64,000 nucleotides of DNA. It comes from Escherichia phage IME08. Under the pieces are notes generated by a model. It searched no databases. It saw nothing but the letters and a program-made list of their open reading frames with translations, and had not been told where the DNA came from. Below, one piece after another: positions 5,167-54,853 of this stretch (position 1 is its first letter; each line of letters begins with the position of its first letter). The stretch is from sequence record NC_014260.1. One strand, 5' to 3'. Position numbers and translations under genes: made by a program.

Positions 5167-5194
5167 TATTGTTTCCTGTGTTAATTAACTTATC

Positions 5195-5202
5195 TATTTA
5201 TA
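5195..5202 (-). promoter_or_regulatory. late promoter TATAAATA
   Basis: Exact octamer about 29 nt upstream of IPIII-like start. Confidence 0.6.
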
Positions 5203-8129: not shown

Positions 8130-8883
8130 TTTTATTTCCTAATAATTTATCAATAGTAGTGTATAGTTCAGAAAGAGTGCCGTTATTTTCAACAACAACG
8201 TCACCAGGTAAAATTGGCAGACCCGCTTCAGTGATGTGCGAGTCTTGTACTTGACCGGTTTCAGAGCGAACTACATGAATAATCGTAGCACCCATCGCTC
8301 TGAGCGAATCAATTTCATGTGTTTGACGAACATCAGGTACGACATAGTATTTCGCATCAGAGTATATTTTATCAAAATAGTCTAAAGCGAACAACTTAAC
8401 CCAATACATCTTATCAAATTGGTTAACAATAATATCAGTCCCAAGGGTCTGCATGAGACGACGTACTGACCAATTGTTATTTTTATTTATTACTTCAAAC
8501 AGTTGGTCTTTTGTTTCTTCAGACAGATACTGGACTGGGGTAAGACCATAATGATATGCGGTACGAACATCAATTCCTGGAATAGGAAGGATATTATTCA
8601 GTTTGACAATAGCATTTTCAAAGATATCAATAACATCATATGGTTTTAAAGGAATGATTTCTTCACGGTCGTAACCGATACCTTCAAAACAGTTAAAATC
8701 GAGTTTAGGCATATAACTACGGTCGAATACAGGGTCATCAGAGATGTATTCATAGGCTTCAGCCAGATACTTTTTAATAGGACCCGCGAGCTGAAATTTT
8801 ACCGAATCCATATTTTCGATTACATAGTTAGCAACGGTATCCTTACCGCTACGTTTGATTCCTACAATTGATATTAGTTTCAT
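8122..8883 (-). CDS. 1: gp1 deoxynucleoside monophosphate kinase
   Basis: P-loop KRSGKDT; VRRLMQ.LGTD, MYWVKLFALDY and ATIIHVVR motifs match T4 gp1. Confidence 0.9.
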
Positions 8884-9473
8884 TATTTTCTCATAGATGG
8901 ATGCATAGACATACGAGCCACACGTTGTTCAGCGTACGAATCAATTTGTGGACGACCTGTAACTATTGTACCATCTATTTCTACAGCAAACGATTTGAAG
9001 TTGAATGTTGCGGTAGCGATTATCGCAGGGTCAGAATCTTCTTTATATGAATACTGGATTTCCGAGAGGTCGGATGGCCAACCACCGTAGTAATGAATGC
9101 TCATTACGATTTTCTGTTTGTTATTATCAAGAATATGGAGCGTAATTGCTTCAGGTAAGCCTTTAGGATGCCAAGCTTCGGATTCATGGGTTACGTAGTT
9201 GTTTAATGACAACATCCACTTATAAACGTCAAGCCATGATTTCAATTCACGGTCTACAAGAAAGTTCACGATCAATGGGTCGAATTCTACAGTAGAACCT
9301 GGCAGCTTAGCACGATGTATGCCCTGGGTCGATCCTGGGACGTCTGAGATCGGAATATGGATACCAGGTAGTGTTACATCTTGTACGTTCAATTTGAATG
9401 ACTGTGTCATTCCTGAGTCACTAACCTCTAAGATAAAGTTGGTGGTGTTAGTTTGGTTAAATAAACCGTTCAT
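8883..9473 (-). CDS. 3: gp3 tail completion / sheath stabiliser (start uncertain, 9473 or 9410)
   Basis: Position between 1 and 2; ORF track 8883..9635 overlaps gp2; ATG at 9473 has SD agga; ATG at 9410 gives T4-like 175 aa. Confidence 0.6.
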   Translation of the reverse strand: MNGLFNQTNTTNFILEVSDSGMTQSFKLNVQDVTLPGIHIPISDVPGSTQGIHRAKLPGSTVEFDPLIVNFLVDRELKSWLDVYKWMLSLNNYVTHESEAWHPKGLPEAITLHILDNNKQKIVMSIHYYGGWPSDLSEIQYSYKEDSDPAIIATATFNFKSFAVEIDGTIVTGRPQIDSYAEQRVARMSMHPSMRK

Positions 9474-9555
9474 AAGGTTCCTATATTGCTTAAGTCCCAG
9501 ACAGTGTATAATGGTCCTAGGTCTGTTCCATTCAATAACTGGCTGGGATAATAGA

Positions 9556-10383
9556 TTATGAATTCTTCCATACTTTCTGAGCTGAGTAACGCTTGCCTTT
9601 AGACATGAATTGCTGAAGTGGAAGCATGACCACATTAGCCCAATCAGATGGTTTTATCTCTACTAAAGGTCCCTTGATATTTCCAGGGATATAAGCCTTA
9701 ATCATCACGTCGGCTCCGGCGAATCCTTTTACCTTGCTCCAATCGATTTTTAATTTAGTCGAGTTCGTAATGGTAGGCGTACTCGCGTATTGCTTCAGCA
9801 ATTCTTCCAGAAATTGTTGTCGTGCTTTAGGCGGGATATAGTGTAAGTTCAGCCCGTACATTAAATTATGCTTACCTAACCCAAGATAAATGATTAAAGG
9901 ATATTTGTCCCAATACGGTAGGGTATCCTTGTGCTTGGCGTCATAGATATAAGCATAAAGCTTACCGGGAGATGGTTTAGATACCTGGTGTCCACGAATT
10001 CCTTTCTTTAATGTTTCTGTAAACCATTTAGCTGATTTATTGTTTACAGCAGCGCCTTCGTTAGCAATCTTATCACGAATACTCTTTCTAAAACTATTCA
10101 CCAAAATTAATTGACGTTCGGCTTTGGTTAATTTATTGCCAGGTTTATTCTGAAGTTTTTCAACCTGTACAGCAGTTTTAATTCGACTCGAGTATCGAGA
10201 CATCGCAGATGTAAAGCTAGAATACTTAATGCCTTTATCTTCAGCAAATTTCTTAGCCGAGACACCTTTAGCCTTAGCTTTAGCGTATTCAACACCTAAT
10301 GCTATCCATTGTTGTTCTGAACGGGTAGGCTTGGAACCCTTTGTGGTTTCAGTAGCCTCATTGATGTAGGAAAATATACTCAT
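9556..10383 (-). CDS. 2: gp2 DNA end protector
   Basis: Position; start placed at the ATGA overlap with gp4 stop, giving 275 aa vs T4 274 aa. Confidence 0.7.
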
Positions 10384-10829
10384 CCTTTCCATCCTAATTT
10401 TTTCAGTGAATGTTCGGTAATCAATCTAAAGGTGATACCCATTTTATCTGCTGTAGCTTTAGCTGCTTTCCACTTATCGGTATTAACAGACCAAGTATAG
10501 TGTTCGTTGATATATCTCTTTTTAGCAGCCGTAGTCATTTTAACAGGCGCCGCAGGAGCATGGGTTTCTTTAAAAGGTTTGACTTCAAAAAAGAATTGTT
10601 GACCTGTATCAAATTTAACCCAGAAGTCCATAAAATATCGTCTTTTCTTTCCTTCGGCATTGCAAAAGTATGGAATCACCACCTCTTCTGAATTCCACTG
10701 GACTACATTAGGATGGTTGTCAAGCCAACGCATAAACCATGCTTCCCAAGAGGAACGATATTGGATTTTCTTCCAGTCACCTTTATATTTTTGTAAGTTT
10801 GTAGGTTTAAATTTCCCTGAGTAAGCCAT
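10380..10829 (-). CDS. 4: gp4 head completion protein
   Basis: 149 aa vs T4 150 aa; position; minus-strand TATAAATA upstream. Confidence 0.75.
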
Positions 10830-10840
10830 AGTCGCCTCCT

Positions 10841-10863
10841 TATAAATATTAATATTATTTATA
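10841..10863. promoter_or_regulatory. divergent late promoters (TATAAATA on + for 53, on - for 4)
   Basis: Exact octamers on both strands in the 4/53 intergenic region. Confidence 0.65.
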
Positions 10864-10875
10864 CTCGGAGGCCCT

Positions 10876-11478
10876 ATGCTCTTCTCATTTTTCGATCCTA
10901 TCGATTACGAATCAAAAACAGTCAAGCCAGATTCCGGCTCATTAACAAATGCCGATGTATTGAGCGTGCCGATGACTGATATATTTAGAAATTATAAAGA
11001 ATATTTTGATAAAGTGGCTAAAAATTATACACTAAAGACTTATTATATCAATGGGGCCCCTCGTCCAGAAGAATTGGCTAATCAACTTTATGGCAACGTC
11101 CAATTATATTGGGTTTTATTGATGTGCAATAATATATACGACCCCTATTACGGCTGGATTACAGGTCAAGAAGCGGCCTACCAAGCGGCAATCCAAAGAT
11201 ATTCTACTGCAGGTGGTAATCAGGTTCTTTATCATGTTAATGAAAAGGGTGAGAAATTCTGGAATCTTGTTAATACTCCAGAAAACCCATATACTTGGTA
11301 TGATAAAGGCGATACAGAAAAACGTTATCCTCAATATGAGGGCCCTTTGGCCGCAGTAGATATTTACGAGGATGCTATTCGTAAAAATGAATATAAGCGC
11401 GAAATAAAGATTATAGACCCTAATGATATTGAGTCCTTTATTTCAGCCCTTATTCGTGAAATGGAGAAAGCCCTCTAA
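10876..11478 (+). CDS. 53: gp53 baseplate wedge protein
   Basis: MLFSFFDPIDYE..YYGWITGQEAAYQA matches T4 gp53; TATAAATA upstream. Confidence 0.9.
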   Translation: MLFSFFDPIDYESKTVKPDSGSLTNADVLSVPMTDIFRNYKEYFDKVAKNYTLKTYYINGAPRPEELANQLYGNVQLYWVLLMCNNIYDPYYGWITGQEAAYQAAIQRYSTAGGNQVLYHVNEKGEKFWNLVNTPENPYTWYDKGDTEKRYPQYEGPLAAVDIYEDAIRKNEYKREIKIIDPNDIESFISALIREMEKAL

Positions 11479-13220
11479 TGATTAACATGTCTGATAATGT
11501 AAGTTGGTTCGTCGGTGTAGTTGAAGACCGAATGGACCCACTCAAACAGGGTCGCGTGCGCGTACGTGTATGGGGTATGCATCCCTATGAAAAAGTACAG
11601 GGCCCTGTAAAAGGCCTTCGTACAGAAGATTTACCATGGATGTCGGTATTAATGCCTACATCTTCTGCCTCTGTTTCTGGTATACAAACCGCTATGACTG
11701 GTATGGTTCCAGGTACACAAGTTTATGGTCACTTTCTTGATAAGTGGAAACTAAACGGGCTTGTCCTCGGTACATACGGTTCTGCTTCAAAACAAAAAGC
11801 GAATCCTAATGAAGGTTTTAGTGACCCAACAGGCCAATATCCACTTTATTTAGGTAACGATGCCGCTGCACTAAACCGAGGTGGTGAAGTTGGATATGAT
11901 GCAACTTCTAACGTAATACAAGATGCAAACACTGATGTAGGTATTAATCCTGATGGTTTAGATTTAAGTCAAGTCAAGCCTGATGATAATCCCAATTTCA
12001 CAATAGAAAACATGCTTCATCGTGATGAGGGTCTTCGTCTTAAAGTATATTGGGACACCGAAGGATATCCAACTATAGGTATAGGCCACCTTATTACACC
12101 GCAACCTATTAGAGATATGAATCAGATAAACAAAATATTATCTAATCAGGTAGGACGGGAAGTTAAAGGTAACCCTGGTGCAATATCAATGGACGAGGCT
12201 TCTAAATTATTCCAAGAAGACCTTAAAAAAGTCCAAAACGATATAGGCAGGCATAGTGTTGTAGGTCCTGTTTACAATAAAGAAAACCGTTCAAGACAAA
12301 TGGCTCTTGAAAACATGGCTTTCCAAATGGGATTAGGTGGGCTTGCTAAATTCCGTGGAATGCTTAGTGCAATGTTAATAGGCGATTATAAAAAGGCATT
12401 TGAGGAAGCTCGTAATTCAGTATGGTTTAACCAAACTAAAGGCCGCGCATCAAGGGTGTCAATGATTATCCTTACAGGTAATATGGAATCGTACGGCATA
12501 ATGGCCCCTAAAGAAAGAGAATTTAAAGGGCGCTCATATAGAATGATTCAAACCTTTGCCGCTCCTACAAATTCAGACCCTGCCGACCCATGGACTCCAG
12601 AAGACACAAGGATTCTTTTTAAAGAACCCGATTCTAGTTATAAAGGCGAATATCCATATGTCCAAACCATGCAAACTGAAGGTGGACATGTCCAAGAATT
12701 TGATAACACCCCAGGTCAAGAACGTTATCGTTTAATCCATCCTACAGGTAGTTATGAAGAGGTTGCTCCTGACGGACGTAAAACTTCTAAGACGGTAGCC
12801 GATGGATATTATATGACCCAAGGCGATTCTAATACTTATGTTGGTGGTAATAATAAAGTCAACATAGGTGGTGATGAAACCTATTATAATATGGCAAACG
12901 TGCGCCGCCAAACTGACGGGTCCGAAAGCATCCATATTCGCGGTAATGAAACTAAAACTGTAGAAGGTGATGGAACCCTTATTGTTAAAGGAAACGTTAC
13001 GGTTATTGTCGAGGGTAATGCAGATATAACTGTTAAAGGTGATGCAAAAACATTAGTTGAAGGCAACCATGACTATACAGTAAATGGAAACGTTAAATGG
13101 TCGGTAAATGGAAACGTTGATATGACTGTTGCAGGCAATTGGTCCGAAACTATGTCAACCATGAGTTCTATCGCATCAGGTCAATATACTATTGATGGTT
13201 CGAGGATTGACATTGGCTAA
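11478..13220 (+). CDS. 5: gp5 baseplate hub / tail lysozyme
   Basis: VGVVEDRMDPLKQGRVRVRVWGMHP and lysozyme motif YWDTEGYPTIGIGHLI match T4 gp5. Confidence 0.95.
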   Translation: MINMSDNVSWFVGVVEDRMDPLKQGRVRVRVWGMHPYEKVQGPVKGLRTEDLPWMSVLMPTSSASVSGIQTAMTGMVPGTQVYGHFLDKWKLNGLVLGTYGSASKQKANPNEGFSDPTGQYPLYLGNDAAALNRGGEVGYDATSNVIQDANTDVGINPDGLDLSQVKPDDNPNFTIENMLHRDEGLRLKVYWDTEGYPTIGIGHLITPQPIRDMNQINKILSNQVGREVKGNPGAISMDEASKLFQEDLKKVQNDIGRHSVVGPVYNKENRSRQMALENMAFQMGLGGLAKFRGMLSAMLIGDYKKAFEEARNSVWFNQTKGRASRVSMIILTGNMESYGIMAPKEREFKGRSYRMIQTFAAPTNSDPADPWTPEDTRILFKEPDSSYKGEYPYVQTMQTEGGHVQEFDNTPGQERYRLIHPTGSYEEVAPDGRKTSKTVADGYYMTQGDSNTYVGGNNKVNIGGDETYYNMANVRRQTDGSESIHIRGNETKTVEGDGTLIVKGNVTVIVEGNADITVKGDAKTLVEGNHDYTVNGNVKWSVNGNVDMTVAGNWSETMSTMSSIASGQYTIDGSRIDIG

Positions 13221-20131: not shown

Positions 20132-20150
20132 AAGGGCCGCAAGGCCCTTT
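20132..20150 (+). terminator. stem-loop AAGGGCC-GCAA-GGCCCUU after gene 8
   Basis: Perfect stem with GNRA loop; same hairpin at 45609. Confidence 0.6.
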
Positions 20151-20156
20151 CGGGGG

Positions 20157-20164
20157 TATAAATA
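20157..20164 (+). promoter_or_regulatory. late promoter TATAAATA (gene 9)
   Basis: Exact octamer. Confidence 0.6.
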
Positions 20165-25069: not shown

Positions 25070-27469
25070 ATGATTGACAAACTGAGTATTAAAGAACTTC
25101 CGTTTGTCGATGGTGTACCTGATGCATCCCAAGAGCGTATCCGTTGGATACGCAATGGAGAATGTATTGAAGGAGCCACGACTAAATACGGTCACGACGG
25201 TAATTTGAACGCCCCTGCTTTAGGAGTACAAACCAACGTAGTTAGATTAGAAGAAAACAGTATAGCTTCTAAAGACAAAATTAACGAGCTTGTGGATAAC
25301 GTTAATTTGATTAATGAAGCCCTAGATATTTCTACTGATACGGCGGTTATTCAGCAAATTGAAAAGAACCGTGTCGATATACTGGCTGTGGATGAAAAGG
25401 CTTCCGAAACTAAACAAGAATTAGGTGACTTAACCGTTAATTTTAATTTTTTAGAAGAAGATGTAGGTTATTATGGCCCGTCTTTAGATGGCCCATATCT
25501 CACCGTCAGAGAAAATATAAATCTTCTTAAATCTGAAATTGGTCACTATGCAAACCAGGACATAAACAGCCAGCCGCTTCCTCCAGGTGAAACCTCTGAA
25601 GCCACCGGCATGAAACGTCGCATTATGGATAATACCAGTGCTATTGTCGACCATTCACAACGTATAGATACCCTTGAAAAGAATTACGAAGATTCTGATG
25701 TAGGGCAACTTGGGCTTAAGATTAACGAAATTCGTGAAGAACTCGGTCCACATATTGATACAGTAGGTAAACAACCAGCATATACCAGGATTTCTGCTCT
25801 TGAAACTGCTGCTGAAAGCTTTAATGAATCAATAGATTCCATCAAGACCAGTATAGGTTTTGATAAAGGCTCTATTGATACAAGAGTAAGCACGCTGGAA
25901 ACTAAAACTTCCACTTTAGAAAACACGGTTAATAACGGTTTGGTTCCTAGAGTTACTGCGGTAGAGACCGCTATCGGTACTGCGGATACCCCTACTTCTA
26001 TTAACGGTAGATTAGGTGGCTTACGTACTGATGTTAATGAGCTAAAAAATATAGTTGGTGATAGTTCGTCTGAAGGGCTTCGTTTCCAGGTTTCTGATAT
26101 TGACCGTAAAATTGGTGCTGATGTAAGTCCGGCGGCAGGAACAATTAATAAACGTTTGAATGACCTTACAACTCAAGGTAATACTTCAGCCTCTACTATT
26201 CAGGACCTGCAGGCAGAGATTGGTAATAACCAAACAGGTATTAAGGGTTCTATTCTTAAAATTACCAACCAGATTGAAGGAACCAACCCTAACGGTAGTA
26301 CTGTAGAAGAACGAGGGTTAATAAACTCTGTTAAAGGCCTTGAAGCCCAAATGCCTACTAAATTGGGTGAAGCTCCTGCTGATGGTAAATTGTATGGGCG
26401 TAAGGATTCAGCTTGGTCTGAAATTATTGACGGCACCACAGAAATTGATGCAGTCAAAGCTTCTTTATTGGTTACAGACGGTAAAGTATCAGCTTTAACG
26501 GCAAGAGTCGATTCCAATGACACTTCAATTTCTTCTCTTGATACACGTACCGGAGCTTTAAACACTTCAGTAGGAGAAATTAAAGCCGATATCGTTTTGT
26601 TAAAATCTAAAGACACCGAGCAAGATAGTCGTATCACAGCTTTAGAAGAAAGTGATGTTACCGTTAATGGAAAAATAACGGCACTTGAATCTAAAACCGA
26701 TACCACTGATTCTGATGTTACTGCTTTGGCCTTAGATGTGAGTTCTATAGAATCGCAATTAACTCCTATTAAAGCTGATATAACTAAGAACAAAGGCGAT
26801 ATCGTTACTTTAACCGGACGAGTAGCTGCTAATGAAGGTGAAATTACCGATATTAAATTGGACACCGCTAAAATAGCTCCTTTAACCACCAGAGTCACTA
26901 CTGCTGAAGGTAAAATTGCCACCTTAGAAACCGGTTTAGCTGCTGTTAAAGTTGAATCTGATAAAGTTGCAGGAATTAATACCCGTTTAGGTACAGCTGA
27001 AGGTAAAATTACCACCTTAGAAACCGGTTTGGACGATGTTAAAGTTGAATCCGATAAAGTTGCAGGGATCGATACCCGTTTAGGTGTTGTTGAAGTTGAA
27101 TCTGGTAAAGTGGCTGGAATCAATACCCGCTTAGGCGTTGTTGAAGGTGAAGTTAGTACTCTTGAAACCGGGTTGGCAGCAGTTAAAGTTGAATCCGATA
27201 AAGTTGCAGGAATCAATACCCGTTTAGGTACGGTAGAAGGTAAAGTTGGTACTCTTGAAACAGGTTTAGCGGCGGTTAAAGTTGAATCTGATAAAGTTGC
27301 TGATTTAGGAACCCGTTTAACTGCGGCTGAAGGTAAAATCACTGCACTAGAAACTGAGTTGGCTAAACGCCCTCCTGTTGCTCCTGCAGCTGATGGACTT
27401 CCGTATGTTCTGGTTGATAATGCATGGGTTCTATTGTCAGATTTTGTGACTTTAAACTCAGCACCATAA
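25070..27469 (+). CDS. wac: fibritin (whiskers), expanded coiled coil
   Basis: N-terminus LPFVDG.P...RI.WI.NGE and C-terminal foldon-like tail match T4 wac; start moved to ATG 25070. Confidence 0.9.
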   Translation: MIDKLSIKELPFVDGVPDASQERIRWIRNGECIEGATTKYGHDGNLNAPALGVQTNVVRLEENSIASKDKINELVDNVNLINEALDISTDTAVIQQIEKNRVDILAVDEKASETKQELGDLTVNFNFLEEDVGYYGPSLDGPYLTVRENINLLKSEIGHYANQDINSQPLPPGETSEATGMKRRIMDNTSAIVDHSQRIDTLEKNYEDSDVGQLGLKINEIREELGPHIDTVGKQPAYTRISALETAAESFNESIDSIKTSIGFDKGSIDTRVSTLETKTSTLENTVNNGLVPRVTAVETAIGTADTPTSINGRLGGLRTDVNELKNIVGDSSSEGLRFQVSDIDRKIGADVSPAAGTINKRLNDLTTQGNTSASTIQDLQAEIGNNQTGIKGSILKITNQIEGTNPNGSTVEERGLINSVKGLEAQMPTKLGEAPADGKLYGRKDSAWSEIIDGTTEIDAVKASLLVTDGKVSALTARVDSNDTSISSLDTRTGALNTSVGEIKADIVLLKSKDTEQDSRITALEESDVTVNGKITALESKTDTTDSDVTALALDVSSIESQLTPIKADITKNKGDIVTLTGRVAANEGEITDIKLDTAKIAPLTTRVTTAEGKIATLETGLAAVKVESDKVAGINTRLGTAEGKITTLETGLDDVKVESDKVAGIDTRLGVVEVESGKVAGINTRLGVVEGEVSTLETGLAAVKVESDKVAGINTRLGTVEGKVGTLETGLAAVKVESDKVADLGTRLTAAEGKITALETELAKRPPVAPAADGLPYVLVDNAWVLLSDFVTLNSAP
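26903..27360 (+). repeat. intragenic tandem repeat in wac, period about 93 bp (31 aa), about 5 copies
   Basis: Repeated unit AEGKI.TLETGLAAVKVESDKVAGINTRLGT read on DNA and protein. Confidence 0.8.
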
Positions 27470-27470: not shown

Positions 27471-27493
27471 AAAAGGGCTTCGGCCCTTTTTTG
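27471..27493 (+). terminator. rho-independent terminator after wac (GGGC-UUCG-GCCC + U6)
   Basis: Read on DNA. Confidence 0.8.
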
Positions 27494-27494
27494 C

Positions 27495-27502
27495 TATAAA
27501 TA
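27495..27502 (+). promoter_or_regulatory. late promoter TATAAATA (gene 13)
   Basis: Exact octamer just after wac terminator. Confidence 0.6.
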
Positions 27503-38967: not shown

Positions 38968-40527
38968 ATGAAAAAGAATGCATTAGTTCAAAAATGGTCC
39001 GCTCTGCTGGAAAACGAAGCTCTTCCTGAAATCGTTGGTGCTTCTAAACAAGCTATCATCGCTAAAATTTTCGAAAACCAGGAACAAGACATCCTGACTG
39101 CTCCAGAATATCGTGACGAAAAAATCTCCGAAGCATTTGGTTCTTTCCTGACTGAAGCTGAAATCGGTGGTGACCACGGTTATGATGCTACCAATATCGC
39201 AGCTGGCCAGACCTCTGGTGCTGTAACTCAGATTGGGCCGGCAGTAATGGGTATGGTTCGTCGTGCTATTCCTCATCTGATTGCTTTTGATATTTGTGGT
39301 GTTCAGCCTCTGAATAACCCTACTGGTCAGGTATTTGCACTGCGTGCAGTATACGGTAAAGACCCTATCGCTGCAGGCGCTAAAGAAGCTTTCCATCCGA
39401 TGTATGCTCCGAACGCTATGTTCTCTGGTCAGGGTGCTGCTGAAACTTTCGAAGCACTGGCTGCAAGCAAAGTTCTGGAAGTTGGTAAAATTTATTCTCA
39501 CTTCTTCGAAGCTACCGGTGCTGCACACTTCCAGGCTGTTGAAGCTGTGACCGTTGATGCAGGCGCTACTGATGCCGCTAAACTGGATGCTGCTGTTACC
39601 GCTCTGGTTGAAGCTGGTCAACTGGCTGAAATCGCTGAAGGTATGGCTACTTCTATCGCTGAACTTCAGGAAGGTTTCAACGGTTCTACCGATAACCCGT
39701 GGAACGAAATGGGCTTCCGCATCGACAAACAAGTTATCGAAGCTAAATCCCGTCAGCTGAAAGCAAGCTACTCTATCGAACTGGCACAGGACCTTCGTGC
39801 AGTACACGGTATGGATGCAGATGCTGAACTGTCCGGTATCCTTGCTACCGAAATTATGCTCGAAATCAACCGTGAAGTTATCGATTGGATTAACTACTCT
39901 GCACAGGTTGGTAAATCTGGTATGACCAACACCGTTGGCGCTAAAGCTGGTGTGTTTGACTTCCAGGACCCGATTGATATCCGTGGTGCTCGTTGGGCCG
40001 GTGAGAGCTTTAAAGCCCTTCTGTTCCAGATTGATAAAGAAGCAGCCGAAATCGCTCGTCAGACCGGTCGTGGTGCTGGTAACTTCATCATCGCTTCCCG
40101 TAACGTAGTTAACGTACTGGCTGCAGTTGATACTTCTGTAAGTTATGCAGCTCAAGGTTTGGGTCAGGGTTTCAACGTTGACACAACCAAAGCAGTATTT
40201 GCCGGTGTTCTTGGTGGTAAATATCGTGTTTACATCGACCAGTATGCTCGTTCCGATTACTTCACCATCGGTTATAAAGGTTCTAACGAAATGGACGCAG
40301 GTATCTACTATGCTCCGTACGTTGCACTGACTCCGCTGCGTGGTTCCGATCCGAAGAACTTCCAACCGGTAATGGGCTTCAAAACTCGTTACGGTATCGG
40401 TATTAACCCGTTCGCTGACCCAGCTGCTCAGGCGCCTACCAAACGTATTCAGAATGGTATGCCTGACATCGTTAACAGCCTCGGTCTGAATGGTTACTTC
40501 CGTCGCGTTTACGTTAAGGGAATTTGA
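38968..40527 (+). CDS. 23: gp23 major capsid protein
   Basis: 519 aa vs T4 521 aa; position. Confidence 0.95.
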   Translation: MKKNALVQKWSALLENEALPEIVGASKQAIIAKIFENQEQDILTAPEYRDEKISEAFGSFLTEAEIGGDHGYDATNIAAGQTSGAVTQIGPAVMGMVRRAIPHLIAFDICGVQPLNNPTGQVFALRAVYGKDPIAAGAKEAFHPMYAPNAMFSGQGAAETFEALAASKVLEVGKIYSHFFEATGAAHFQAVEAVTVDAGATDAAKLDAAVTALVEAGQLAEIAEGMATSIAELQEGFNGSTDNPWNEMGFRIDKQVIEAKSRQLKASYSIELAQDLRAVHGMDADAELSGILATEIMLEINREVIDWINYSAQVGKSGMTNTVGAKAGVFDFQDPIDIRGARWAGESFKALLFQIDKEAAEIARQTGRGAGNFIIASRNVVNVLAAVDTSVSYAAQGLGQGFNVDTTKAVFAGVLGGKYRVYIDQYARSDYFTIGYKGSNEMDAGIYYAPYVALTPLRGSDPKNFQPVMGFKTRYGIGINPFADPAAQAPTKRIQNGMPDIVNSLGLNGYFRRVYVKGI

Positions 40528-40557
40528 TAACATAAGTTATTAATTCTTAAATTATTT

Positions 40558-40575
40558 GGGAGACTTCGGTCTCCC
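40558..40575. terminator. bidirectional stem-loop between gene 23 and segD-like gene
   Basis: GGGAGAC-UUCG-GUCUCCC between convergent genes. Confidence 0.65.
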
Positions 40576-40585
40576 ATTCTTGTTT

Positions 40586-41257
40586 CTATAACTTATAGCA
40601 ATCGTCAAATTGAGGCCTTGTTTCTTTAATCCAATTACGAATGGTAGCTCCGGTAACATTAAAAAATTCGGCGGCGGTTTCGTATCTGTCAAATCTATAT
40701 CCTTTAATCATTATATCAACAAATACAAATTTCTTACCTTTATTAGAGTTCTCTCTAATTTTGGCTTTATGTTCTTCCGATAGTTTCCTACCTTTAAGAT
40801 GAGAATCCCTATTCTCATAAAACTTTTTATTAGCTATAGATTTGTTTTCTCGGTGCTCTTTGGATTCTTTAGAACCTGTTTTCGATTTAGACATTTTGGC
40901 CCTTACTTCCTTGGTCATACCTGCCTTGGTCTTTTCGGATAACATCTCACGATACCCAGGTTCCTGTAAAGCTACTATAACAGGATTACCCTTACCACCT
41001 AAAGCTGCATTATAAGTATCTGTTCTCATAACAAAAGCCTCGTCAACTAGTTCGGCTTCCTTAGCATACATCTCTTCAGATGTTTCGAAATTGAAAAGGA
41101 TTTCCTTTTTAAAATTCTCTAAGCCGTATTTCTTTATGGATTTTACTATGTTAACCCCGGAGCCCATATAAGAATCATTAACATCTGTAGTGGCATGGGC
41201 TCCAACATAAATCTTGTTATTAATGAGATTGGTTATTTTGTAAATTAAATAATTCAT
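40586..41257 (-). CDS. GIY-YIG homing endonuclease, SegD-like
   Basis: N-terminal IYKITNLINNKIYVGAH; 223 aa; sits between genes 23 and 24 as T4 segD does. Confidence 0.8.
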   Translation of the reverse strand: MNYLIYKITNLINNKIYVGAHATTDVNDSYMGSGVNIVKSIKKYGLENFKKEILFNFETSEEMYAKEAELVDEAFVMRTDTYNAALGGKGNPVIVALQEPGYREMLSEKTKAGMTKEVRAKMSKSKTGSKESKEHRENKSIANKKFYENRDSHLKGRKLSEEHKAKIRENSNKGKKFVFVDIMIKGYRFDRYETAAEFFNVTGATIRNWIKETRPQFDDCYKL

Positions 41258-41260
41258 ATT

Positions 41261-41527
41261 TTACGCTGCTTTGACACGACGGTTGATGATATCACGGAAG
41301 TCAATACGATTTTCTTGGATTTTCAGCCAGTTACCAGATTTGTCTTTGGTATGGGTAGAGTATTCACCGTTCCACCAGAAGTCGGTAGCATAAGCCATGG
41401 CTTCGTATTTCTTAACTAGTGCATTCACTGCATTACCGTTAGGATTGGAACCATATTTTTCTACCAGGGCTTTGATGTCTTTATCAAGAGCGGAAAGAGT
41501 AGTACGAATAAAGTTTAACTTGTTCAT
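41261..41527 (-). CDS. hypothetical protein with its own early-type promoter
   Basis: ORF track 41261..41542; first ATG lies inside the SD, so start moved to 41527. Confidence 0.5.
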   Translation of the reverse strand: MNKLNFIRTTLSALDKDIKALVEKYGSNPNGNAVNALVKKYEAMAYATDFWWNGEYSTHTKDKSGNWLKIQENRIDFRDIINRRVKAA

Positions 41528-41556
41528 TTTTAATCTCCTCATGTTTTGATAGGTCT

Positions 41557-41586
41557 ATAGTAACATGTGATAACCTTGCTGTAAAC
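41557..41586 (-). promoter_or_regulatory. early-type promoter GTTTAC-N18-TACTAT
   Basis: Upstream of 41261..41527. Confidence 0.5.
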
Positions 41587-41592
41587 AACTTT

Positions 41593-41600
41593 TATAAATA
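41593..41600 (+). promoter_or_regulatory. late promoter TATAAATA (gene 24)
   Basis: Exact octamer. Confidence 0.6.
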
Positions 41601-41628
41601 AACATATACCCTCAATAAGGAAAGCGCA

Positions 41629-42909
41629 ATGGCAAAGATTAACGAATTACTGCGCGAGTCAACAACTACTTCTAGCAACTCATTGGGTCGCCCTAATCTT
41701 GTTGCTTTGACCCGTGCTACAACCAAATTGATTTACCGTGATATTATTGCTGAACAACGTACTAGCCAGCCTATTGCTGCATTGTATGGTGTCAAATATC
41801 TTACCCCTGATAATGAATTCAGTTTCCAAACTGGTGCTGTTTATGGCGGTGAAGTTGGTTCTAAAGACCGTGAAACTATCCCAGAACTCACAGATAAGGC
41901 CCAGGCGATTGCCAAGGGTGAATATTTCAAGTATCAGAATATTGTTTATAAGGCTCTTCAAGCAAGCCCACTCGCATCCACTAGCGCTACAGAATTGGCT
42001 GATGCCCTTCAAGAAGGTTTGGTGTCATTAACATGTCGTCTGGTTCCTGATGCGGCTCACACAGAGAAATTCGAAGCAGGTGATGTTGAAATTAGCAATG
42101 CAGTATTCCAGGTTAATAAATGGAACGCACCTGTTAAGTCTCGTAAACTTAAAACCGCTTTGACTGTAGAACTAGCCCAAGACATGGAATCCAATGGCTT
42201 CGACGCCCCTGCATTCTTAGAAGACCTCCTGGCTACAGTAATGGCAGATGAAATTAATAAAGACGTTCTGCAGTCTCTAATAACTGTATCTAAACGCTAT
42301 AAAGTTACCGGTGTATCTGATAACGGTATTGTCGATTTGTCTTATGACAGTGCTCCGGAATCTGCACGTAAACTTTATGAAATGGTTTGTGAGATGAATT
42401 CTGAAATTCAGAAAACCACTTCTTATTCAGGTACGTTTGTTGTCGCATCTAGTCGTGTAGCTGCAATGCTTGCTGGTTCAGGTTGGTTGAAACATAAACC
42501 AGAAGATGAAGCTTGGCTCCCAGAAACCGCTTATGGTTATTTGATTAACGGATTGCCTGTATTCTGTGATGTTAATAGTCCTTTAGATTATGTTATCGTG
42601 GGCGTTAAAGAAGATTACGGCGGTAATGAAGTGGTTGGTTCTATTTTCTATGCTCCGTATACCGAAGGTCTGGATTTAGACGACCAAGAACATGTTGGTG
42701 CCTATAAAGTTATTGTAGACCCTGATAGTTTGCAACCGGCTATTTCTCTGATGGTTCGTTATGCACTTTCAGCAAACCCATATACCGTTGCTAAAGATGA
42801 TAAAGAAGCTCGTGTTATAGACGCAACTAATATGGATTTAATGGCAGGGCAGAGTAACATGTCTTATCTGCTTGGTGTTAAACTTCCTCCAATTATTTAC
42901 GAGGCATAA
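41629..42909 (+). CDS. 24: gp24 capsid vertex protein
   Basis: Collinear match to T4 gp24 (MAKINELLRESTTT, KSRKLKT..TVELAQD, NPYTVAKD.KEAR); TATAAATA upstream. Confidence 0.95.
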   Translation: MAKINELLRESTTTSSNSLGRPNLVALTRATTKLIYRDIIAEQRTSQPIAALYGVKYLTPDNEFSFQTGAVYGGEVGSKDRETIPELTDKAQAIAKGEYFKYQNIVYKALQASPLASTSATELADALQEGLVSLTCRLVPDAAHTEKFEAGDVEISNAVFQVNKWNAPVKSRKLKTALTVELAQDMESNGFDAPAFLEDLLATVMADEINKDVLQSLITVSKRYKVTGVSDNGIVDLSYDSAPESARKLYEMVCEMNSEIQKTTSYSGTFVVASSRVAAMLAGSGWLKHKPEDEAWLPETAYGYLINGLPVFCDVNSPLDYVIVGVKEDYGGNEVVGSIFYAPYTEGLDLDDQEHVGAYKVIVDPDSLQPAISLMVRYALSANPYTVAKDDKEARVIDATNMDLMAGQSNMSYLLGVKLPPIIYEA

Positions 42910-44193: not shown

Positions 44194-44205
44194 TAGGAGA
44201 AATAT

Positions 44206-44412
44206 ATGGTAGATGAAACCCTGTTTGGTCATGACGGAAGAGGCAACTTTAGTGGCAAATCCTTAATTCAGCCAGAAGAGTCTATTATAATTCCGTTTTC
44301 GAACATCAGAATTTCTACAGAAAAGATAAAGTTAAATGAAGTTGAAGTTAACAATTTAGCAAAAAGTATTTTAGAATCAACAACCCAAGAAGAGGTTCAT
44401 AGTGTGTTTTAG
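44206..44412 (+). CDS. 68-aa ORF, likely N-terminal segment of the collagen-like protein
   Basis: ATG with SD aggaga; ends HSVF-TAG in a T4 run; LFGHDGRG motif shared with mini-ORF at 47032. Confidence 0.5.
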
Positions 44413-45602: not shown

Positions 45603-45608
45603 AACATA

Positions 45609-45626
45609 AAGGGCCGCAAGGCCCTT
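45609..45626. terminator. bidirectional stem-loop between collagen-like gene and rnlB
   Basis: AAGGGCC-GCAA-GGCCCUU between convergent genes. Confidence 0.65.
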
Positions 45627-45631
45627 ATCAT

Positions 45632-46639: not shown

Positions 46640-46753
46640 AAATCACCATAATAAATATAATTAAATAGAAGAGCTAGTATTCTTCTGTCACCAAGCCAAA
46701 TGGTTTAACGGAAGGACCTAGACCCATTATAACACATCTAAATTTAAAGCATA

Positions 46754-46963
46754 TTACTTTGAACTAGAACGCGCTTTGCGCCGAACCTTGTTGTTCAATC
46801 TTTTACGATAGACAATCTTTTCTTTCGCTTTAAATTTGGCCTTAGCATTCTCAACTTCGGTCCAAGCTTTAGCCATATCTCTGGCGGTTCCGCCAATCTT
46901 TTTAGCAATATCAATAAAATTCATACCCGATTCATGTAAAAAATGTACTTTAATCTTATCCAT
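46754..46963 (-). CDS. small basic protein with HTH-like segment
   Basis: ORF track; segment MNFIDIAKKIGGTARDMAKAW; K/R-rich tail. Confidence 0.45.
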   Translation of the reverse strand: MDKIKVHFLHESGMNFIDIAKKIGGTARDMAKAWTEVENAKAKFKAKEKIVYRKRLNNKVRRKARSSSK

Positions 46964-47031
46964 AACAATTCTCTTGTGATTTGACTATTCAATAATAACA
47001 TGAGAATTTTAACTTGTAAACAGGAGATTTT

Positions 47032-47106
47032 ATGCCAGACAATCCATTATACGGGCATGACGGTAGAGGTGTATCATTAGAACTCACTAGTGAAAGCACC
47101 TTTTAA
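47032..47106 (+). CDS. 24-aa upstream mini-ORF (MPDNPLYGHDGRG...)
   Basis: ATG with SD aggag; stop lies in SD of next gene; N-terminus resembles 44206 ORF. Confidence 0.4.
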   Translation: MPDNPLYGHDGRGVSLELTSESTF

Positions 47107-47115
47107 GGAGGTTAA

Positions 47116-47982: not shown

Positions 47983-47987
47983 AAAAA

Positions 47988-48013: not shown

Positions 48014-48014
48014 A

Positions 48015-49849: not shown

Positions 49850-49871
49850 TATAAATATAACTATATTTATA
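49850..49871. promoter_or_regulatory. divergent late promoters (TATAAATA on + for uvsW, on - for inh)
   Basis: Exact octamers on both strands. Confidence 0.6.
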
Positions 49872-49885: not shown

Positions 49886-51382
49886 ATGCAAATTCAAGTA
49901 CATTTCGATAATTTTAGTCATGTTCGTATTGAGTGTGATGAATCCACATTCTACGAACTCAGAGACTATTTTAGCTTTGAAGCTGATGGATATAAATTCA
50001 ACCCTAAATTTCGTTATGGTCAATGGGACGGACGTATTCGCCTTCTGGATTATAATCGTAAACTTCCTTATGGATTGGTTCCGCAGATTAAAAAATTCGC
50101 TGAACAATTTGAATACTCTCTGTGGATTGACCCACGTATTCTTGAACAGGAAGATATTTCTCGTGAAGATTTTGACTCATGGGTGGCATCTCAAGAAATT
50201 TATTCAGGGTCTACCAAGATTGAGCCCCATTGGTATCAGAATGAAGCCGTATACAACGGTCTAACAAAACGTCGCGCAATTCTGAATTTACCTACATCTG
50301 CAGGTAAATCATTAATCCAGGCGCTCCTGAGTCGATACTACGTTGAGAACTATGAAGGTAAAATTCTTATCTTAGTTCCTACTACTGCACTCGTTGACCA
50401 GATGATTAATGACTTCATCGATTATCGGTTGTTCCCTAAAGCCGCAATGCTTGGAATTCGTTCAGGTACTGCTCGTGATTCTGATGCAATGATTTACGTT
50501 TCGACTTATCAAACTGCTATTAAGCAACCTAAAGAATGGTTTGCTCAGTTTGGTATGTTTATGAACGATGAATGTCATTTGGCTACAGGTAAATCTATTT
50601 CTACCATCATCGAAGGCCTAACCAACTGTATGTTTAAATTCGGTTTGTCTGGTTCTTTAAAAGATGGTAAAGCTAATTTAATGCAATATATGGGTTTGTT
50701 TGGTGATGTGTTTAAACCTGTTTCCACCTCCCAATTGATGGAAGAAGGACAGGTTACAGACCTTAAAATCAACAGTATTTTCCTTCGATACCCAGACGAA
50801 TTCACTGTTAAGATGAAAGGTAAAGATTACCAATCAGAAATTAAAGTCATTACTAAGGCTACTCGTCGTAATAAATGGGTTGCTAATTTAGCTGTTAAAC
50901 TCGCTAAGAAAGAAGAGAACGTATTCCTGATGTTTAAAAACATCGAACACGGTAAAACTCTTTTTGAAATGGTTAAAGAGCAACATAAAGAAGTTTATTA
51001 CGTATCAGGTGAAGTTAATACCGAAACGCGTAATGCTCTGAAAGTAATGGCGGAAAATGGTAAGGGTATTATTGTTGTGGCAAGTTATGGTGTGTTCTCT
51101 ACTGGTATTTCTGTTAAGAACCTTCATCACGTTGTATTTGCTCACCCAGTAAAATCCAAAATCATTGTACTCCAGACAATTGGTCGTGTACTCCGTAAAC
51201 ATGCTTCCAAATCAACAGCGCAAGTATGGGATATCATCGACGACATGGGTGTTAAGCCTAAATCAGCTACGGCTAAAAAGAAATATGTTCATTTGAACTA
51301 CGCCCTCAAACACGCTTTAGAACGTATTCAACGTTATGCTGATGAGAAATTTAATTACGTAATGAAACAGGTGGATTTATGA
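49886..51382 (+). CDS. uvsW: UvsW helicase
   Basis: Walker A PTSAGKS, DECH box; 498 aa; TATAAATA upstream. Confidence 0.9.
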   Translation: MQIQVHFDNFSHVRIECDESTFYELRDYFSFEADGYKFNPKFRYGQWDGRIRLLDYNRKLPYGLVPQIKKFAEQFEYSLWIDPRILEQEDISREDFDSWVASQEIYSGSTKIEPHWYQNEAVYNGLTKRRAILNLPTSAGKSLIQALLSRYYVENYEGKILILVPTTALVDQMINDFIDYRLFPKAAMLGIRSGTARDSDAMIYVSTYQTAIKQPKEWFAQFGMFMNDECHLATGKSISTIIEGLTNCMFKFGLSGSLKDGKANLMQYMGLFGDVFKPVSTSQLMEEGQVTDLKINSIFLRYPDEFTVKMKGKDYQSEIKVITKATRRNKWVANLAVKLAKKEENVFLMFKNIEHGKTLFEMVKEQHKEVYYVSGEVNTETRNALKVMAENGKGIIVVASYGVFSTGISVKNLHHVVFAHPVKSKIIVLQTIGRVLRKHASKSTAQVWDIIDDMGVKPKSATAKKKYVHLNYALKHALERIQRYADEKFNYVMKQVDL

Positions 51383-53037: not shown

Positions 53038-53427
53038 TTAACCACTCTGGGAGAGCTGAATTCTAATTTGCTCTAATGTATCCGGGTCATCAACGATACT
53101 AAACTGAACAGTCACGATAATCGAGTTATCATCGTACACAGGTGTCACACCTACAGCCAGGGCAGAAATTCTGGGTTCGAAGTTCCGCACAGCGGAAACT
53201 ATATTACGCTTAATGGTGTCTGTGATTAATGGAGTAATATTCTCAAACAATTGGTTGCTGATGTCACAACCGAATTCAGGCATAAAAGGGCGTGAACCTT
53301 TGCGAGTAGTAATAATACCTAACAAGCTATTTTTTACTGCACGAGCGCCTATAGCTTTAGCAACGTCTCTATTCCAAGACGTCCTCATTTCAGGGTCTAA
53401 ATCCGAATACATTTTATTGATATTCAT
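53038..53427 (-). CDS. 25: gp25 baseplate wedge protein
   Basis: NINK.YSD.DPEM...LLGIITTRKGSRPF.PEFGCD matches T4 gp25. Confidence 0.95.
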   Translation of the reverse strand: MNINKMYSDLDPEMRTSWNRDVAKAIGARAVKNSLLGIITTRKGSRPFMPEFGCDISNQLFENITPLITDTIKRNIVSAVRNFEPRISALAVGVTPVYDDNSIIVTVQFSIVDDPDTLEQIRIQLSQSG

Positions 53428-54050
53428 TACATCACCTTAAAGAACTCTTTAAGTCCCTCAATAACGTGGACAGTATGTTCACCACATTCACAAGAAATAG
53501 GTATGGCCAAAATAGGCTTAGGGGCAACTAGTGCATCATAAACTTCTTTTATATCTTTTTCTGTTATCACAGAATAAAGGTCATCAAGTTCCACATCGCT
53601 TAAATCTGAAAGAAAAAGCTTTTCGCCTGTAGAAGTTAAAATATAATCGATACACCCTGCGACCATCATAGCCCTATTTTTATCTTCAAAGAGTTTAGGG
53701 TATCTGAAAACAATTTTAAAGTTGCCAAAGTCTTTAATAACATCAGGCTCTTTACCCAATGTTGCGCGAGTTAGTGTCATAGGGACAACCTGTGAGCGAC
53801 CACAACTACAAACCCACTCACGTTCTATATTCACTTCAGCTAATGAATGGGCCCACAGGTTTATCACTAGGAGCTCAGATTCTTGCTTGTTTAAATCACG
53901 AGCATCTGTGCAATTCGAAATGAGTTCATTGATAAAGGACTCTATTCTGCCTTCTAATTTAGCTTGGAGCAAGTCCTTATACTCTCTGAGGGTAAATGCT
54001 CTGCATTTTATGGTTTTGTTTTTAATTTTTACGTCAAAAGTATAATTCAT
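53427..54050 (-). CDS. 26: gp26 baseplate hub protein
   Basis: 207 aa vs T4 208 aa; position; minus-strand TATAAATA. Confidence 0.8.
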   Translation of the reverse strand: MNYTFDVKIKNKTIKCRAFTLREYKDLLQAKLEGRIESFINELISNCTDARDLNKQESELLVINLWAHSLAEVNIEREWVCSCGRSQVVPMTLTRATLGKEPDVIKDFGNFKIVFRYPKLFEDKNRAMMVAGCIDYILTSTGEKLFLSDLSDVELDDLYSVITEKDIKEVYDALVAPKPILAIPISCECGEHTVHVIEGLKEFFKVM

Positions 54051-54068: not shown

Positions 54069-54080
54069 TATTTATAAATA
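54069..54080. promoter_or_regulatory. overlapping divergent late promoters (gene 26 on -, gene 51 on +)
   Basis: ttaTTTATAAATAc holds the octamer on both strands. Confidence 0.65.
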
Positions 54081-54100: not shown

Positions 54101-54853
54101 ATGGCTAATATCGTACGTTGTGAAATGCCTGATGGAGTCCACCGATTTAAACCTTTTACAGTAGCTGATTATCGTGATTTTATTTTGATTCGAAATGACA
54201 TGAATAATAAATCGCCTGAAGAGCAAAAACAAATTTTAGATGAGTTACTGGAAGAATACTTCGGTGAATATCCTATGTCATGGCGCCCGTATATGTTCAT
54301 TGAACTTTACACGTCATCACTCGGCAAGACCAAAATTCCTATCCGATACACTTGCAGTAAGTGTGAAAAGGATAGACAAGTTTTATTCAATTTGAAACAG
54401 GCCAAGTTAGATAATCCCACAATTGAAGTGGCAGGCTTGAAGCTAACATTCAAATTTCCGGAAATAGAATATCAAGACAAATCTGAATTGATTTTGAACA
54501 CCCTCCAAACCGTAGAAGATGAAAACGGAAAATATAATTGGACTGACCTTTCTGAAGAAGACCAATTAGCCGTAATAGATGCTATAGACTTATCCACTTT
54601 AGAGGATATAGTCAAACAAACCGGCCCTATCCACTTTGAGCTTAAATATGGGTGCTGTAATCGTAGAACAATTATGTATACCGATATTTTAGAGGTGTTT
54701 AAGCTTATAGTCAATCCGGATGAGATATTTTTATTTTACCAAATAAACCATTTATTGGTAAAGAACAATTATTCATTAGAAAGCATTATGCAGATGATTC
54801 CAATCGAACGCGGTATTGCTTTGTCTTTGGTTGAAAAGGACCTTAAGAAATGA
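54101..54853 (+). CDS. 51: gp51 baseplate hub assembly protein
   Basis: Track start 54050 is TTG; ATG 54101 with SD aagagga gives 250 aa vs T4 249; TATAAATA at 54073. Confidence 0.8.

What the first reader, a model, noticed from the sequence alone, without database searches (positions are those of the whole stretch)
10841..10863. Back-to-back late promoters sharing a compact intergenic region
At the 4/53, inh/uvsW and 26/51 junctions TATAAATA is present on both strands within 12-25 bp; at 54069..54080 the two octamers overlap (TTTATAAATA). This is consistent with T4-type late promoter organisation at divergent late genes.
Basis: partly seen in the sequence, partly recalled or inferred. Interest (0 to 1): 0.25.

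Follow-up and report, generated by a model that had tools for sequence, protein, structure and literature searches.

The report
Paired opposite-strand T4-type late promoters
Three short gaps between divergently transcribed late genes of this T4-like phage each carry the late-promoter box TATAAATA on both strands, a real and deeply conserved but already documented arrangement, so the finding is correct and ordinary.

Summary
Perfect TATAAATA octamers lie on both strands at 10841-10863 (gene 4/53), 49850-49871 (inh/uvsW) and 54069-54080 (26/51). That is 3 opposed pairs against 0.04 expected from whole-window shuffles and 0.009 from intergenic-only shuffles.

All 18 octamers in the window point the same way as the local genes. 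Fourteen sit 13-43 nt (predicted leader) upstream of a start codon. The pairs occur only where both flanking genes are late genes.

Both boxes are invariant or nearly so across 21-36 distinct T4-like sequences per junction, while flanking bases vary. T4 has the same pairs. In phage Aeh1 both boxes carry that lineage's own consensus, CTAAATA.

The interpretation, gp55-type late promoters for divergent late operons, is supported. One correction is needed. At the flagged site and at inh/uvsW the promoters are face-to-face: each box lies on the far side from its gene, and the predicted start sites cross by 5-6 nt. Only 26/51 is truly back-to-back, as a 12-bp palindrome TATTTATAAATA.

In every case the two polymerase sites overlap, so firing should be mutually exclusive (inferred). 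Nolan et al. 2006 already predicted these pairs in RB69. Novelty: already known. Interest: low.

The parts
10841..10848 (+). Late-promoter box TATAAATA (-13..-6) for gene 53 and the rightward baseplate operon. Predicted +1 is about 10854 (A), giving a 22-nt leader.
   Evidence: The box is conserved in 21 of 21 distinct homologous junctions, 8 of which have an A at -13 on one strand.
10856..10863 (-). Late-promoter box TATAAATA for gene 4 and the leftward 4-2-3 operon. Predicted +1 is about 10850 (A on the - strand), giving a 21-nt leader.
   Evidence: It is the only perfect minus-strand box upstream of this operon.
10849..10855 (.). 7-bp spacer TTAATAT that contains both predicted start sites. 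The two transcripts would overlap over 10850-10854.
   Evidence: Geometry follows from box positions plus the -13..-6 rule (PMC1524935). Spacers of 7, 10 or 11 bp occur in all relatives.
10380..10829 (-). Gene 4 (head closure / head completion).
   Evidence: phrog_218, E 1.7e-62; annotation of phage C6.
10876..11478 (+). Gene 53 (baseplate wedge subunit).
   Evidence: PF11246 Phage_gp53, E 1.4e-73; 66% identity to T4 gp53.
49850..49857 (+). Late-promoter box for uvsW. Predicted +1 is about 49863 (A), giving a 23-nt leader.
   Evidence: TATAAATA-N6-TATTTAT(A/T) occurs in 26 of 28 distinct junctions. T4 UvsW is expressed from a late promoter (PMC3016281).
49864..49871 (-). Late-promoter box for inh-hoc. 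Predicted +1 is about 49858 (A on the - strand), giving a 23-nt leader.
   Evidence: A late promoter upstream of inh is described in T4 (PMC2988022).
49158..49835 (-). inh (inhibitor of prohead protease).
   Evidence: phrog_1051, E 2.8e-90; annotations of relatives.
49886..51382 (+). uvsW (RNA-DNA and DNA-DNA helicase).
   Evidence: PHROG helicase families; 73% identity to T4 UvsW.
54069..54080 (.). Perfect 12-bp palindrome TATTTATAAATA, made of the minus-strand box (54069-54076, gene 26) and the plus-strand box (54073-54080, gene 51) overlapping by 4 bp. Predicted +1 sites are 54063 (-) and 54086 (+), 23 bp apart, and the transcripts do not overlap.
   Evidence: The 12-mer is invariant in 34 of 36 distinct junctions, while flanking bases show a mean major-base frequency of 0.51-0.54. 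The TATT upstream of the + box is not a general feature of late promoters.
53427..54050 (-). Gene 26 (baseplate hub).
   Evidence: PF12322, E 5e-51; phrog_150.
54101..54853 (+). Gene 51 (baseplate hub assembly catalyst).
   Evidence: PF12322, E 6e-56; 51% identity to T4 gp51.

Best explanation
Each of the three junctions carries two functional T4-type late promoters, one on each strand. A late promoter is just the 8-bp box TATAAATA at -13..-6, with no -35 element. It is read by host RNA polymerase core carrying the phage sigma gp55 and co-activator gp33, and it is activated by the DNA-loaded sliding clamp gp45.

The plus-strand boxes start the rightward late units (53-5-6..., uvsW, 51-27-28...). 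The minus-strand boxes start the leftward late units (4-2-3, inh-hoc, 26-25).

The intergenic gaps are only 46-50 bp, so the two promoters must share the same DNA. Two solutions are used, and each is conserved at its own junction:
- Crossed or face-to-face boxes separated by 6-7 bp, at 4/53 and inh/uvsW. Each box lies at +3..+10 of the other promoter, leaders are 21-23 nt, and the 5' ends overlap by 5-6 nt.
- Back-to-back boxes fused into the palindrome TATTTATAAATA, at 26/51, with 13-15 nt leaders.

Status of each step:
- Shown here: presence, orientation, spacing, specificity for late/late junctions and deep conservation of both boxes.
- Taken from established T4 biochemistry: recognition by gp55/gp33/gp45 and the start site about 6 nt after the box.
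- Inferred: the open complexes overlap, including the melted region, so only one polymerase can occupy a pair at a time. Clamp orientation, set by which strand carries the nick or primer end, then determines which member of a pair is activated on a given DNA molecule.
For: **Enrichment and placement.**
- There are 18 boxes against about 8 expected. Fourteen of the 18 lie wholly outside coding sequence, which is 8.5% of the window.
- All 18 are co-oriented with the local genes. The predicted leaders of those 14 are 13-43 nt, most often about 22 nt.
- Intergenic-only shuffles give 1.07 boxes against 12 observed, and 0.009 pairs against 3 observed.

**Specificity.** Divergent junctions whose leftward gene is not a late or virion gene (41542/41629 upstream of gene 24; 46963/47116) have no minus-strand box. 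Each leftward late operon has only this one perfect box.

**Conservation.**
- All 21 distinct 4/53 junctions, 27 of 28 inh/uvsW junctions and all 36 26/51 junctions keep both boxes, in loci whose proteins fall to about 50-60% identity.
- Core columns score 0.91-1.00 against 0.51-0.69 for the flanks, apart from the right flank of the four closely related N10 sequences.
- A purine sits at the predicted +1 on both strands in 73 of 84 and 81 of 84 cases.

**T4 itself.** T4 has the same pairs with the same geometry.

**Co-variation.** Aeh1, whose late consensus is CTAAATA (PMC1524935), has TATTTAGCTAAATA at its gene 4 junction.

**Machinery.** The same-genus phage JS98 encodes gp55, gp45 and gp44/62.

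**Literature.**
- The box lies at -13..-6 (PMC1524935).
- Late promoters have no -35 element. [quoted passage not shown] The clamp extends the footprint 13 bp upstream (PMC2988020).
- UvsW and inh have late promoters in T4.
Against: - No transcript 5' ends have been mapped in this phage, and I could not retrieve primary mapping data for these three T4 junctions. Miller et al. 2003 was not held, and the Scarlato et al. 1989 paper I recall could not be found.
- The review PMC2988020 itself cautions that not all listed T4 late promoters have been shown to be active in vivo.
- The compared sequences are phylogenetically related, so the counts are not independent events.
- gp33 was not looked for, and gp55 and gp45 lie outside this window.
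- Mutual exclusion and clamp-orientation choice are inferences from footprint sizes, not tested here.
Confidence: 0.9

Rival explanations
1. Only one box of each pair is a working promoter. The other is a by-product of AT-richness or of the near-palindromic nature of TATAAATA.
For: - The box is nearly self-complementary, and intergenic DNA is 61% A+T.
- In T4 and some relatives the second box is imperfect: AATAAATA at inh in T4, and -13 variants in 8 of 21 4/53 junctions and 6 of 27 inh/uvsW junctions.
Against: - Chance pairs are expected 0.009 times in intergenic-composition shuffles against 3 observed.
- Both boxes are conserved while the spacers and flanks vary.
- The -13 T-to-A change is the commonest tolerated variant of late promoters (PMC2988020).
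- The TATT that completes the minus-strand box at 26/51 is invariant, yet it is absent upstream of unpaired promoters.
- The leftward late operons have no other perfect box.
- Aeh1 changes both boxes to its own consensus.
Confidence: 0.05
2. The inverted repeat TATAAATA-N6/7-TATTTATA is primarily an operator for a dimeric DNA-binding protein, such as a DsbA-like late-promoter-binding protein, or an RNA hairpin affecting stability or termination. On this view it is not two promoters.
For: - T4 DsbA binds A/T-rich sites overlapping two late promoters, although with micromolar affinity (PMC2988020).
- The repeats can fold into hairpins of -3.5 to -6.4 kcal/mol, with z-scores of -2 to -3.9.
Against: - The stems contain only A-U pairs and are weak. 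The 26/51 element forms no hairpin (-0.6 kcal/mol).
- Each predicted late mRNA starts inside the spacer and so contains only one arm.
- Spacer length differs between junctions (6, 7, 10, 11 or 12 bp, or a 4-bp overlap), which does not fit a single dimer-binding geometry.
- The arms are exactly the promoter consensus and change with it in Aeh1.
- This reading does not exclude promoter function.
Confidence: 0.03
3. The boxes serve as sigma-70 -10 elements (TATAAA against TATAAT) of early or middle promoters.
For: TATAAA matches 5 of the 6 bases of the sigma-70 -10 hexamer.
Against: - The sigma-70 scan finds no promoter-like -35/-10 combination at any of the three junctions.
- The flanking genes are virion or late genes.
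- In T4 all early and middle transcription has one polarity (PMC2988020), whereas these boxes occur on both strands.
Confidence: 0.02

Closest known systems
Phage T4 late promoters at the 4/53, inh/segE(uvsW) and 26/51 junctions
   Same: The box and the geometry are the same at the orthologous junctions. T4 4/53 reads TATAAATA-N7-TATTTATA, its inh junction reads TATAAATA-N6-TATTTATT, and its 26/51 junction reads TATTTATAAATA. The literature states that uvsW and inh have late promoters.
   Different: - T4 has the homing endonuclease gene segE inserted between the pair and uvsW, with another AATAAATA/TATAAATA-class element (the search pattern allowed A or T at -13) inside segE about 100 nt upstream of uvsW.
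- T4's inh box has A at -13.
- T4 has an extra GATAAATA box nearer gene 26.
Predicted late-promoter pairs in RB69 (Nolan et al. 2006, Virol J 3:30, additional file 5)
   Same: Overlapping opposite-strand predictions at 80613(+)/80684(-) and 118620(+)/118672(-). I mapped these to the RB69 4/53 and 26/51 junctions.
   Different: The pairs appear only as coordinates in a supplement. The pairing and its geometry are not discussed in the paper, and no minus-strand partner is listed at RB69 inh/uvsW.
Aeh1 gene 4 / gp48 junction
   Same: Two opposed late boxes in a short divergent late/late junction next to gene 4.
   Different: The boxes are Aeh1's own consensus CTAAATA, arranged back-to-back and abutting (TATTTAGCTAAATA). 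The rightward neighbour is gp48, not gp53.
Divergent overlapping and face-to-face bacterial promoter pairs (classification of Beck and Warren 1988, recalled from memory)
   Same: Two promoters of opposite orientation share one polymerase-sized stretch of DNA, so occupancy should be mutually exclusive.
   Different: Here there is no -35 element and no site-specific regulator. The activator is a sliding clamp whose orientation on the DNA sets which polarity is activated (PMC2988020).

Membership tests
T4-type (gp55/gp33/gp45-dependent) late promoter | 8-bp TATAAATA box (A tolerated at -13) at -13..-6 | tested here: met
   All six boxes at the three junctions are perfect. The definition comes from PMC1524935 and PMC2988020.
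T4-type (gp55/gp33/gp45-dependent) late promoter | No -35 element, and not a sigma-70-type promoter | tested here: met
   The sigma-70 consensus scan finds nothing at the three junctions. Sequence upstream of the boxes is not conserved.
T4-type (gp55/gp33/gp45-dependent) late promoter | Lies just upstream of, and co-oriented with, a late gene (virion genes, uvsW) | tested here: met
   Predicted leaders are 13-23 nt to gp4, gp53, Inh, UvsW, gp26 and gp51.
T4-type (gp55/gp33/gp45-dependent) late promoter | The phage encodes gp55, gp33 and the gp45 clamp with its loader | tested here: inconclusive
   These genes lie outside the window. JS98, of the same genus and with UvsW scored at 100% identity (best tblastn segment) to the window's, encodes gp55, gp45 and gp44/62. 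gp33 was not looked for.
T4-type (gp55/gp33/gp45-dependent) late promoter | Late, replication-coupled, gp55-dependent RNA 5' ends about 6 nt downstream of the box | not testable with these tools
   This needs RNA 5'-end mapping. The only indirect support is a purine at the predicted +1 on both strands in most relatives.
Back-to-back divergent promoter pair (start sites diverge, transcripts do not overlap) | The leftward promoter lies to the left of the rightward promoter | tested here: not met
   At 10841-10863 and 49850-49871 the + box is to the left of the - box, so the predicted starts cross (10854 against 10850; 49863 against 49858). The feature is met only at 54069-54080.
Face-to-face / overlapping divergent promoter pair | Opposed promoters whose polymerase-binding regions overlap | tested here: met
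   The boxes are 6-7 bp apart or overlap by 4 bp. Late open complexes span far more than this, and with the clamp they extend a further 13 bp upstream (PMC2988020). The overlap is a geometric inference, not a measured footprint.

The most novel reading that the evidence does not exclude
The paired promoters could work as a clamp-orientation-sensitive toggle. The two open complexes exclude each other. gp45 activates only the promoter whose non-transcribed strand carries the loading nick or primer end. On any one replicating DNA molecule, the direction of the last fork, or the strand carrying the nick, would then decide which of the two divergent late operons fires. The junction-specific geometry (crossed N6/N7 against the fused palindrome) would be conserved because it sets the ratio and the interference between the two outputs.
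Probability: 0.15. Interest if true: 0.45.

Novelty: already known. Interest (0 to 1): 0.12.

Why it matters
The result matters mainly as an annotation. It places six late promoters and their probable start sites in this Dhakavirus-like genome, and it shows that the three leftward late operons depend on the minus-strand boxes.

The only mildly interesting point is architectural. Each junction has kept its own geometry, crossed or fused-palindromic, across the sampled relatives (proteins down to about 50-60% identity); in the more distant Aeh1 the gene-4 pair persists but with a different geometry. Two identical-consensus promoters must compete for the same DNA. That makes these sites a clean natural test bed for promoter interference and for the polarity rule of sliding-clamp activation. 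None of this is unexpected for T4 specialists.

Tried and rejected
- **Miller et al. 2003 (PMC150520).** I tried to read it for the T4 late-promoter table, but it is not held.
- **Scarlato et al. 1989.** I recall a paper in Virology, 'overlapping promoters direct divergent transcription of the base plate gene cluster'. Three full-text searches found no trace of it, so it is cited as memory only.
- **Genome-wide T4 start-site mapping.** Searches for RNA-seq or Cappable-seq data found nothing relevant.
- **Promoter features in T4 records.** NC_000866 and AF158101 carry none at these sites. X14869 lists two 'put. promoter' features at the inh junction, without mapping.
- **Hairpin or terminator reading.** Rejected. 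The stems are weak and A-U only, there is none at 26/51, and each predicted mRNA holds only one arm.
- **Sigma-70 promoter reading.** Rejected.
- **Chance.** Rejected.
- **RB43 pairs in the Nolan supplement.** One lies upstream of gene 34 next to a co-oriented ORF, and one lies in an unannotated stretch. Neither was informative.

Full report
**What the window is.** The window is a T4-like myovirus of the genus Dhakavirus (JS98, Bp7 and C6 group). Positions 9800-12000 are 97.5% identical to Escherichia phage C6. Gene order follows T4 from gene 57/1/3 through the baseplate, neck, head and hub clusters to alt and gene 30.

**Observation.**
- A search for TATAAATA on both strands gives 18 perfect hits, against 7.9 +/- 2.7 in dinucleotide shuffles; no shuffle reached 18.
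- Opposed pairs within 25 bp are expected 0.043 times in whole-window shuffles, with 0 of 1000 reaching 3. In shuffles of intergenic DNA alone, which is 61% A+T, they are expected 0.009 times, with 0 of 5000 reaching 3.
- The flanking genes are as claimed: gp4(-)/gp53(+), Inh(-)/UvsW(+) and gp26(-)/gp51(+). The evidence is PHROG and Pfam hits, annotation of relatives and 51-73% identity to the T4 proteins.

**Are they promoters?** Late promoters of T4 are defined as an 8-bp TATAAATA at -13..-6 with no -35 element (PMC1524935; PMC2988020).
- All 18 boxes in the window are co-oriented with the local genes. Fourteen lie wholly outside coding sequence, which makes up only 8.5% of the window. With +1 placed 6 nt after the box, the leaders of those 14 are 13-43 nt, most often about 22 nt.
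- The six paired boxes give leaders of 21-23 nt at 4/53 and inh/uvsW and 13-15 nt at 26/51.
- There is an internal control. Two other divergent junctions, 41542(-)/41629(+) upstream of gene 24 and 46963(-)/47116(+), have a non-virion gene on the left and carry no minus-strand box, even allowing one mismatch.
- The window holds only four perfect minus-strand boxes. Three are the ones at these junctions, and each is the only perfect box upstream of its leftward late operon.
- No sigma-70-type promoter is called at any of the three junctions.

**Geometry: a correction to the title.** At 4/53 and inh/uvsW the + box lies to the left of the - box. Each box therefore sits on the far side of the gap from the gene it serves, and the promoters fire through one another.
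- The predicted starts are 10854(+) against 10850(-), and 49863(+) against 49858(-). Both starts fall in the 6-7 bp spacer, and the two mRNAs overlap by 5-6 nt at their 5' ends.
- Each box occupies +3..+10 of the opposite promoter. This is a face-to-face or crossed pair, not a back-to-back one.
- Only 26/51 is back-to-back. There the boxes overlap by 4 bp to make the perfect palindrome TATTTATAAATA, with predicted starts at 54063(-) and 54086(+), 23 bp apart.
- The three gaps are almost the same length (46-50 bp), so geometry is not dictated by gap length alone.

**Comparative evidence.**
- T4 itself has TATAAATA-N7-TATTTATA at 4/53 and TATAAATA-N6-TATTTATT at inh, where the homing endonuclease gene segE now separates the pair from uvsW. 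It has TATTTATAAATA at 26/51, plus an extra GATAAATA box nearer gene 26.
- I collected the junctions from IMG/VR contigs using gp53, UvsW and gp51 as queries (protein identity down to about 50-60%).
- Among distinct 4/53 sequences, 21 of 21 are face-to-face, with spacers of 7, 10 or 11 bp.
- Among distinct inh/uvsW sequences, 27 of 28 are face-to-face, 26 of them with exactly N6. The exception has an endonuclease insertion.
- Among distinct 26/51 sequences, 36 of 36 have both boxes perfect, and 34 carry the fused 12-mer.
- When the sequences are anchored on the element, core columns have a mean major-base frequency of 0.91-1.00 against 0.51-0.69 in the flanks, apart from the right flank of the four closely related N10 sequences.
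- The base at the predicted +1 is a purine in 73 of 84 cases on the + strand and 81 of 84 on the - strand.
- The four bases TATT that complete the minus-strand box at 26/51 are not a general upstream preference of late promoters in this window. Their invariance therefore reflects selection on the gene 26 promoter itself.
- Aeh1 gives the best single piece of evidence. Its late consensus has shifted to CTAAATA, and its gene 4 junction reads TATTTAG-CTAAATA, so both members follow the lineage's own consensus.

**How it most likely works.**
- Established for T4 (PMC2988020): gp55 confers recognition of the box. gp33 and the DNA-tracking clamp gp45 activate the promoter. The clamp sits at the upstream end of the complex and lengthens the footprint by 13 bp. 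[quoted passage not shown]
- The same-genus phage JS98 encodes gp55, gp45 and gp44/62. gp33 was not checked.
- Inferred: with boxes 6-7 bp apart or overlapping, the two open complexes, including their melted regions, cannot coexist. The members of a pair therefore compete, and clamps of opposite orientation would serve opposite members. None of this is measured here.

**Rivals.**
- A by-product second box is contradicted by conservation, specificity, chance estimates and Aeh1.
- An operator or hairpin role is unlikely. Folding gives only weak A-U stems of -3.5 to -6.4 kcal/mol, and none at 26/51. Each predicted mRNA contains only one arm, and spacer lengths differ between junctions.
- A sigma-70 role is not supported.

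**What is already known.**
- Reviews state that UvsW is expressed from a late promoter (PMC3016281) and that a late promoter lies upstream of inh (PMC2988022).
- Additional file 5 of Nolan et al. 2006 lists overlapping opposite-strand late-promoter predictions in RB69. I mapped these to the 4/53 and 26/51 junctions. It lists similar pairs in RB49 and Aeh1.
- From memory only: Miller et al. 2003 tabulate T4 late promoters, and a 1989 Virology paper by Scarlato et al. describes overlapping divergent late promoters of the baseplate cluster. I could not retrieve either.
- The feature is therefore already known in kind and at the orthologous sites. The only additions here are the explicit geometric classification and its conservation at each junction.

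**Verdict.** Novelty: already known. Interest: about 0.12.

Noticed in passing
window 53427-54853: gp26 and gp51, the two genes diverging from the palindromic 12-mer, are paralogs. Both match PF12322 T4_baseplate (E 5e-51 and 6e-56) and phrog_150. Direct BLASTP gives 21% identity, E 3e-6, and the same holds for the T4 pair. The locus looks like an ancient inverted duplication with a symmetric bidirectional promoter at its axis.
   Followed up: partly
window 41629-42909 and 42910-44193: Two tandem gp24-like head vertex genes, 56% identical and both matching PF07068. Only the first is preceded by a late box (41593). Phage C6 has a single copy, whereas IME341 is annotated with two.
   Followed up: partly
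window 40400-49200: This stretch is the least conserved part of the window: no phage record covers more than 73% of it. It holds a leftward ORF with a sub-threshold SegE GIY-YIG match (40586-41257), rnlB, a DUF2774 ORF (46754-46963), and a rightward ORF with a sub-threshold Ig-domain (Ig_2) match (47116-47982) that converges on a 377-aa hoc.
   Followed up: partly
window 10380-10829: gp4 (head closure) matches Pfam PF08722, the TnsA-like endonuclease N-terminal domain, at E 2e-23 and above the family's curated cut-off.
   Followed up: no
window 5183-5202, 20145-20164, 27483-27502: Three unpaired late boxes are directly preceded by sequence that looks like the end of a terminator: GGGCCTTTTTTG, CCCTTTCGGGGG and GCCCTTTTTTGC. 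A terminator and the next late promoter appear to abut.
   Followed up: no
window 31938, 33836, 37147, 38820: Four perfect boxes lie inside coding regions, co-oriented with the genes: the terminase large subunit, the tail sheath, a prohead core protein and the scaffold gene. The last is 135 nt upstream of the major capsid gene and is the likely gene 23 promoter.
   Followed up: no
window 25070-27469: The fibritin (wac) ORF is 799 aa, against 514 aa in phage C6. The Fibritin_C domain sits mid-protein at residues 373-452 and is followed by about 350 more residues with only sub-threshold matches to coiled-coil-type Pfam families. This may be a fusion or a duplication.
   Followed up: no
L005 3022-3043 and 3576 (T4); L054: In T4 the inh/uvsW promoter pair now precedes the inserted segE gene. 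Another AATAAATA/TATAAATA-class element (the search pattern allowed A or T at -13) lies inside the 3' end of segE, about 100 nt upstream of uvsW. IMG/VR locus L054 shows a similar embedded box 78 nt upstream of uvsW. This fits the 'embedded promoter' idea in PMC2988022.
   Followed up: partly
window 8883-9635: A 250-aa leftward ORF between gene 2 and gene 3. Part of this region is annotated in phage C6 as an intron-like site-specific endonuclease. It has no Pfam hit.
   Followed up: no
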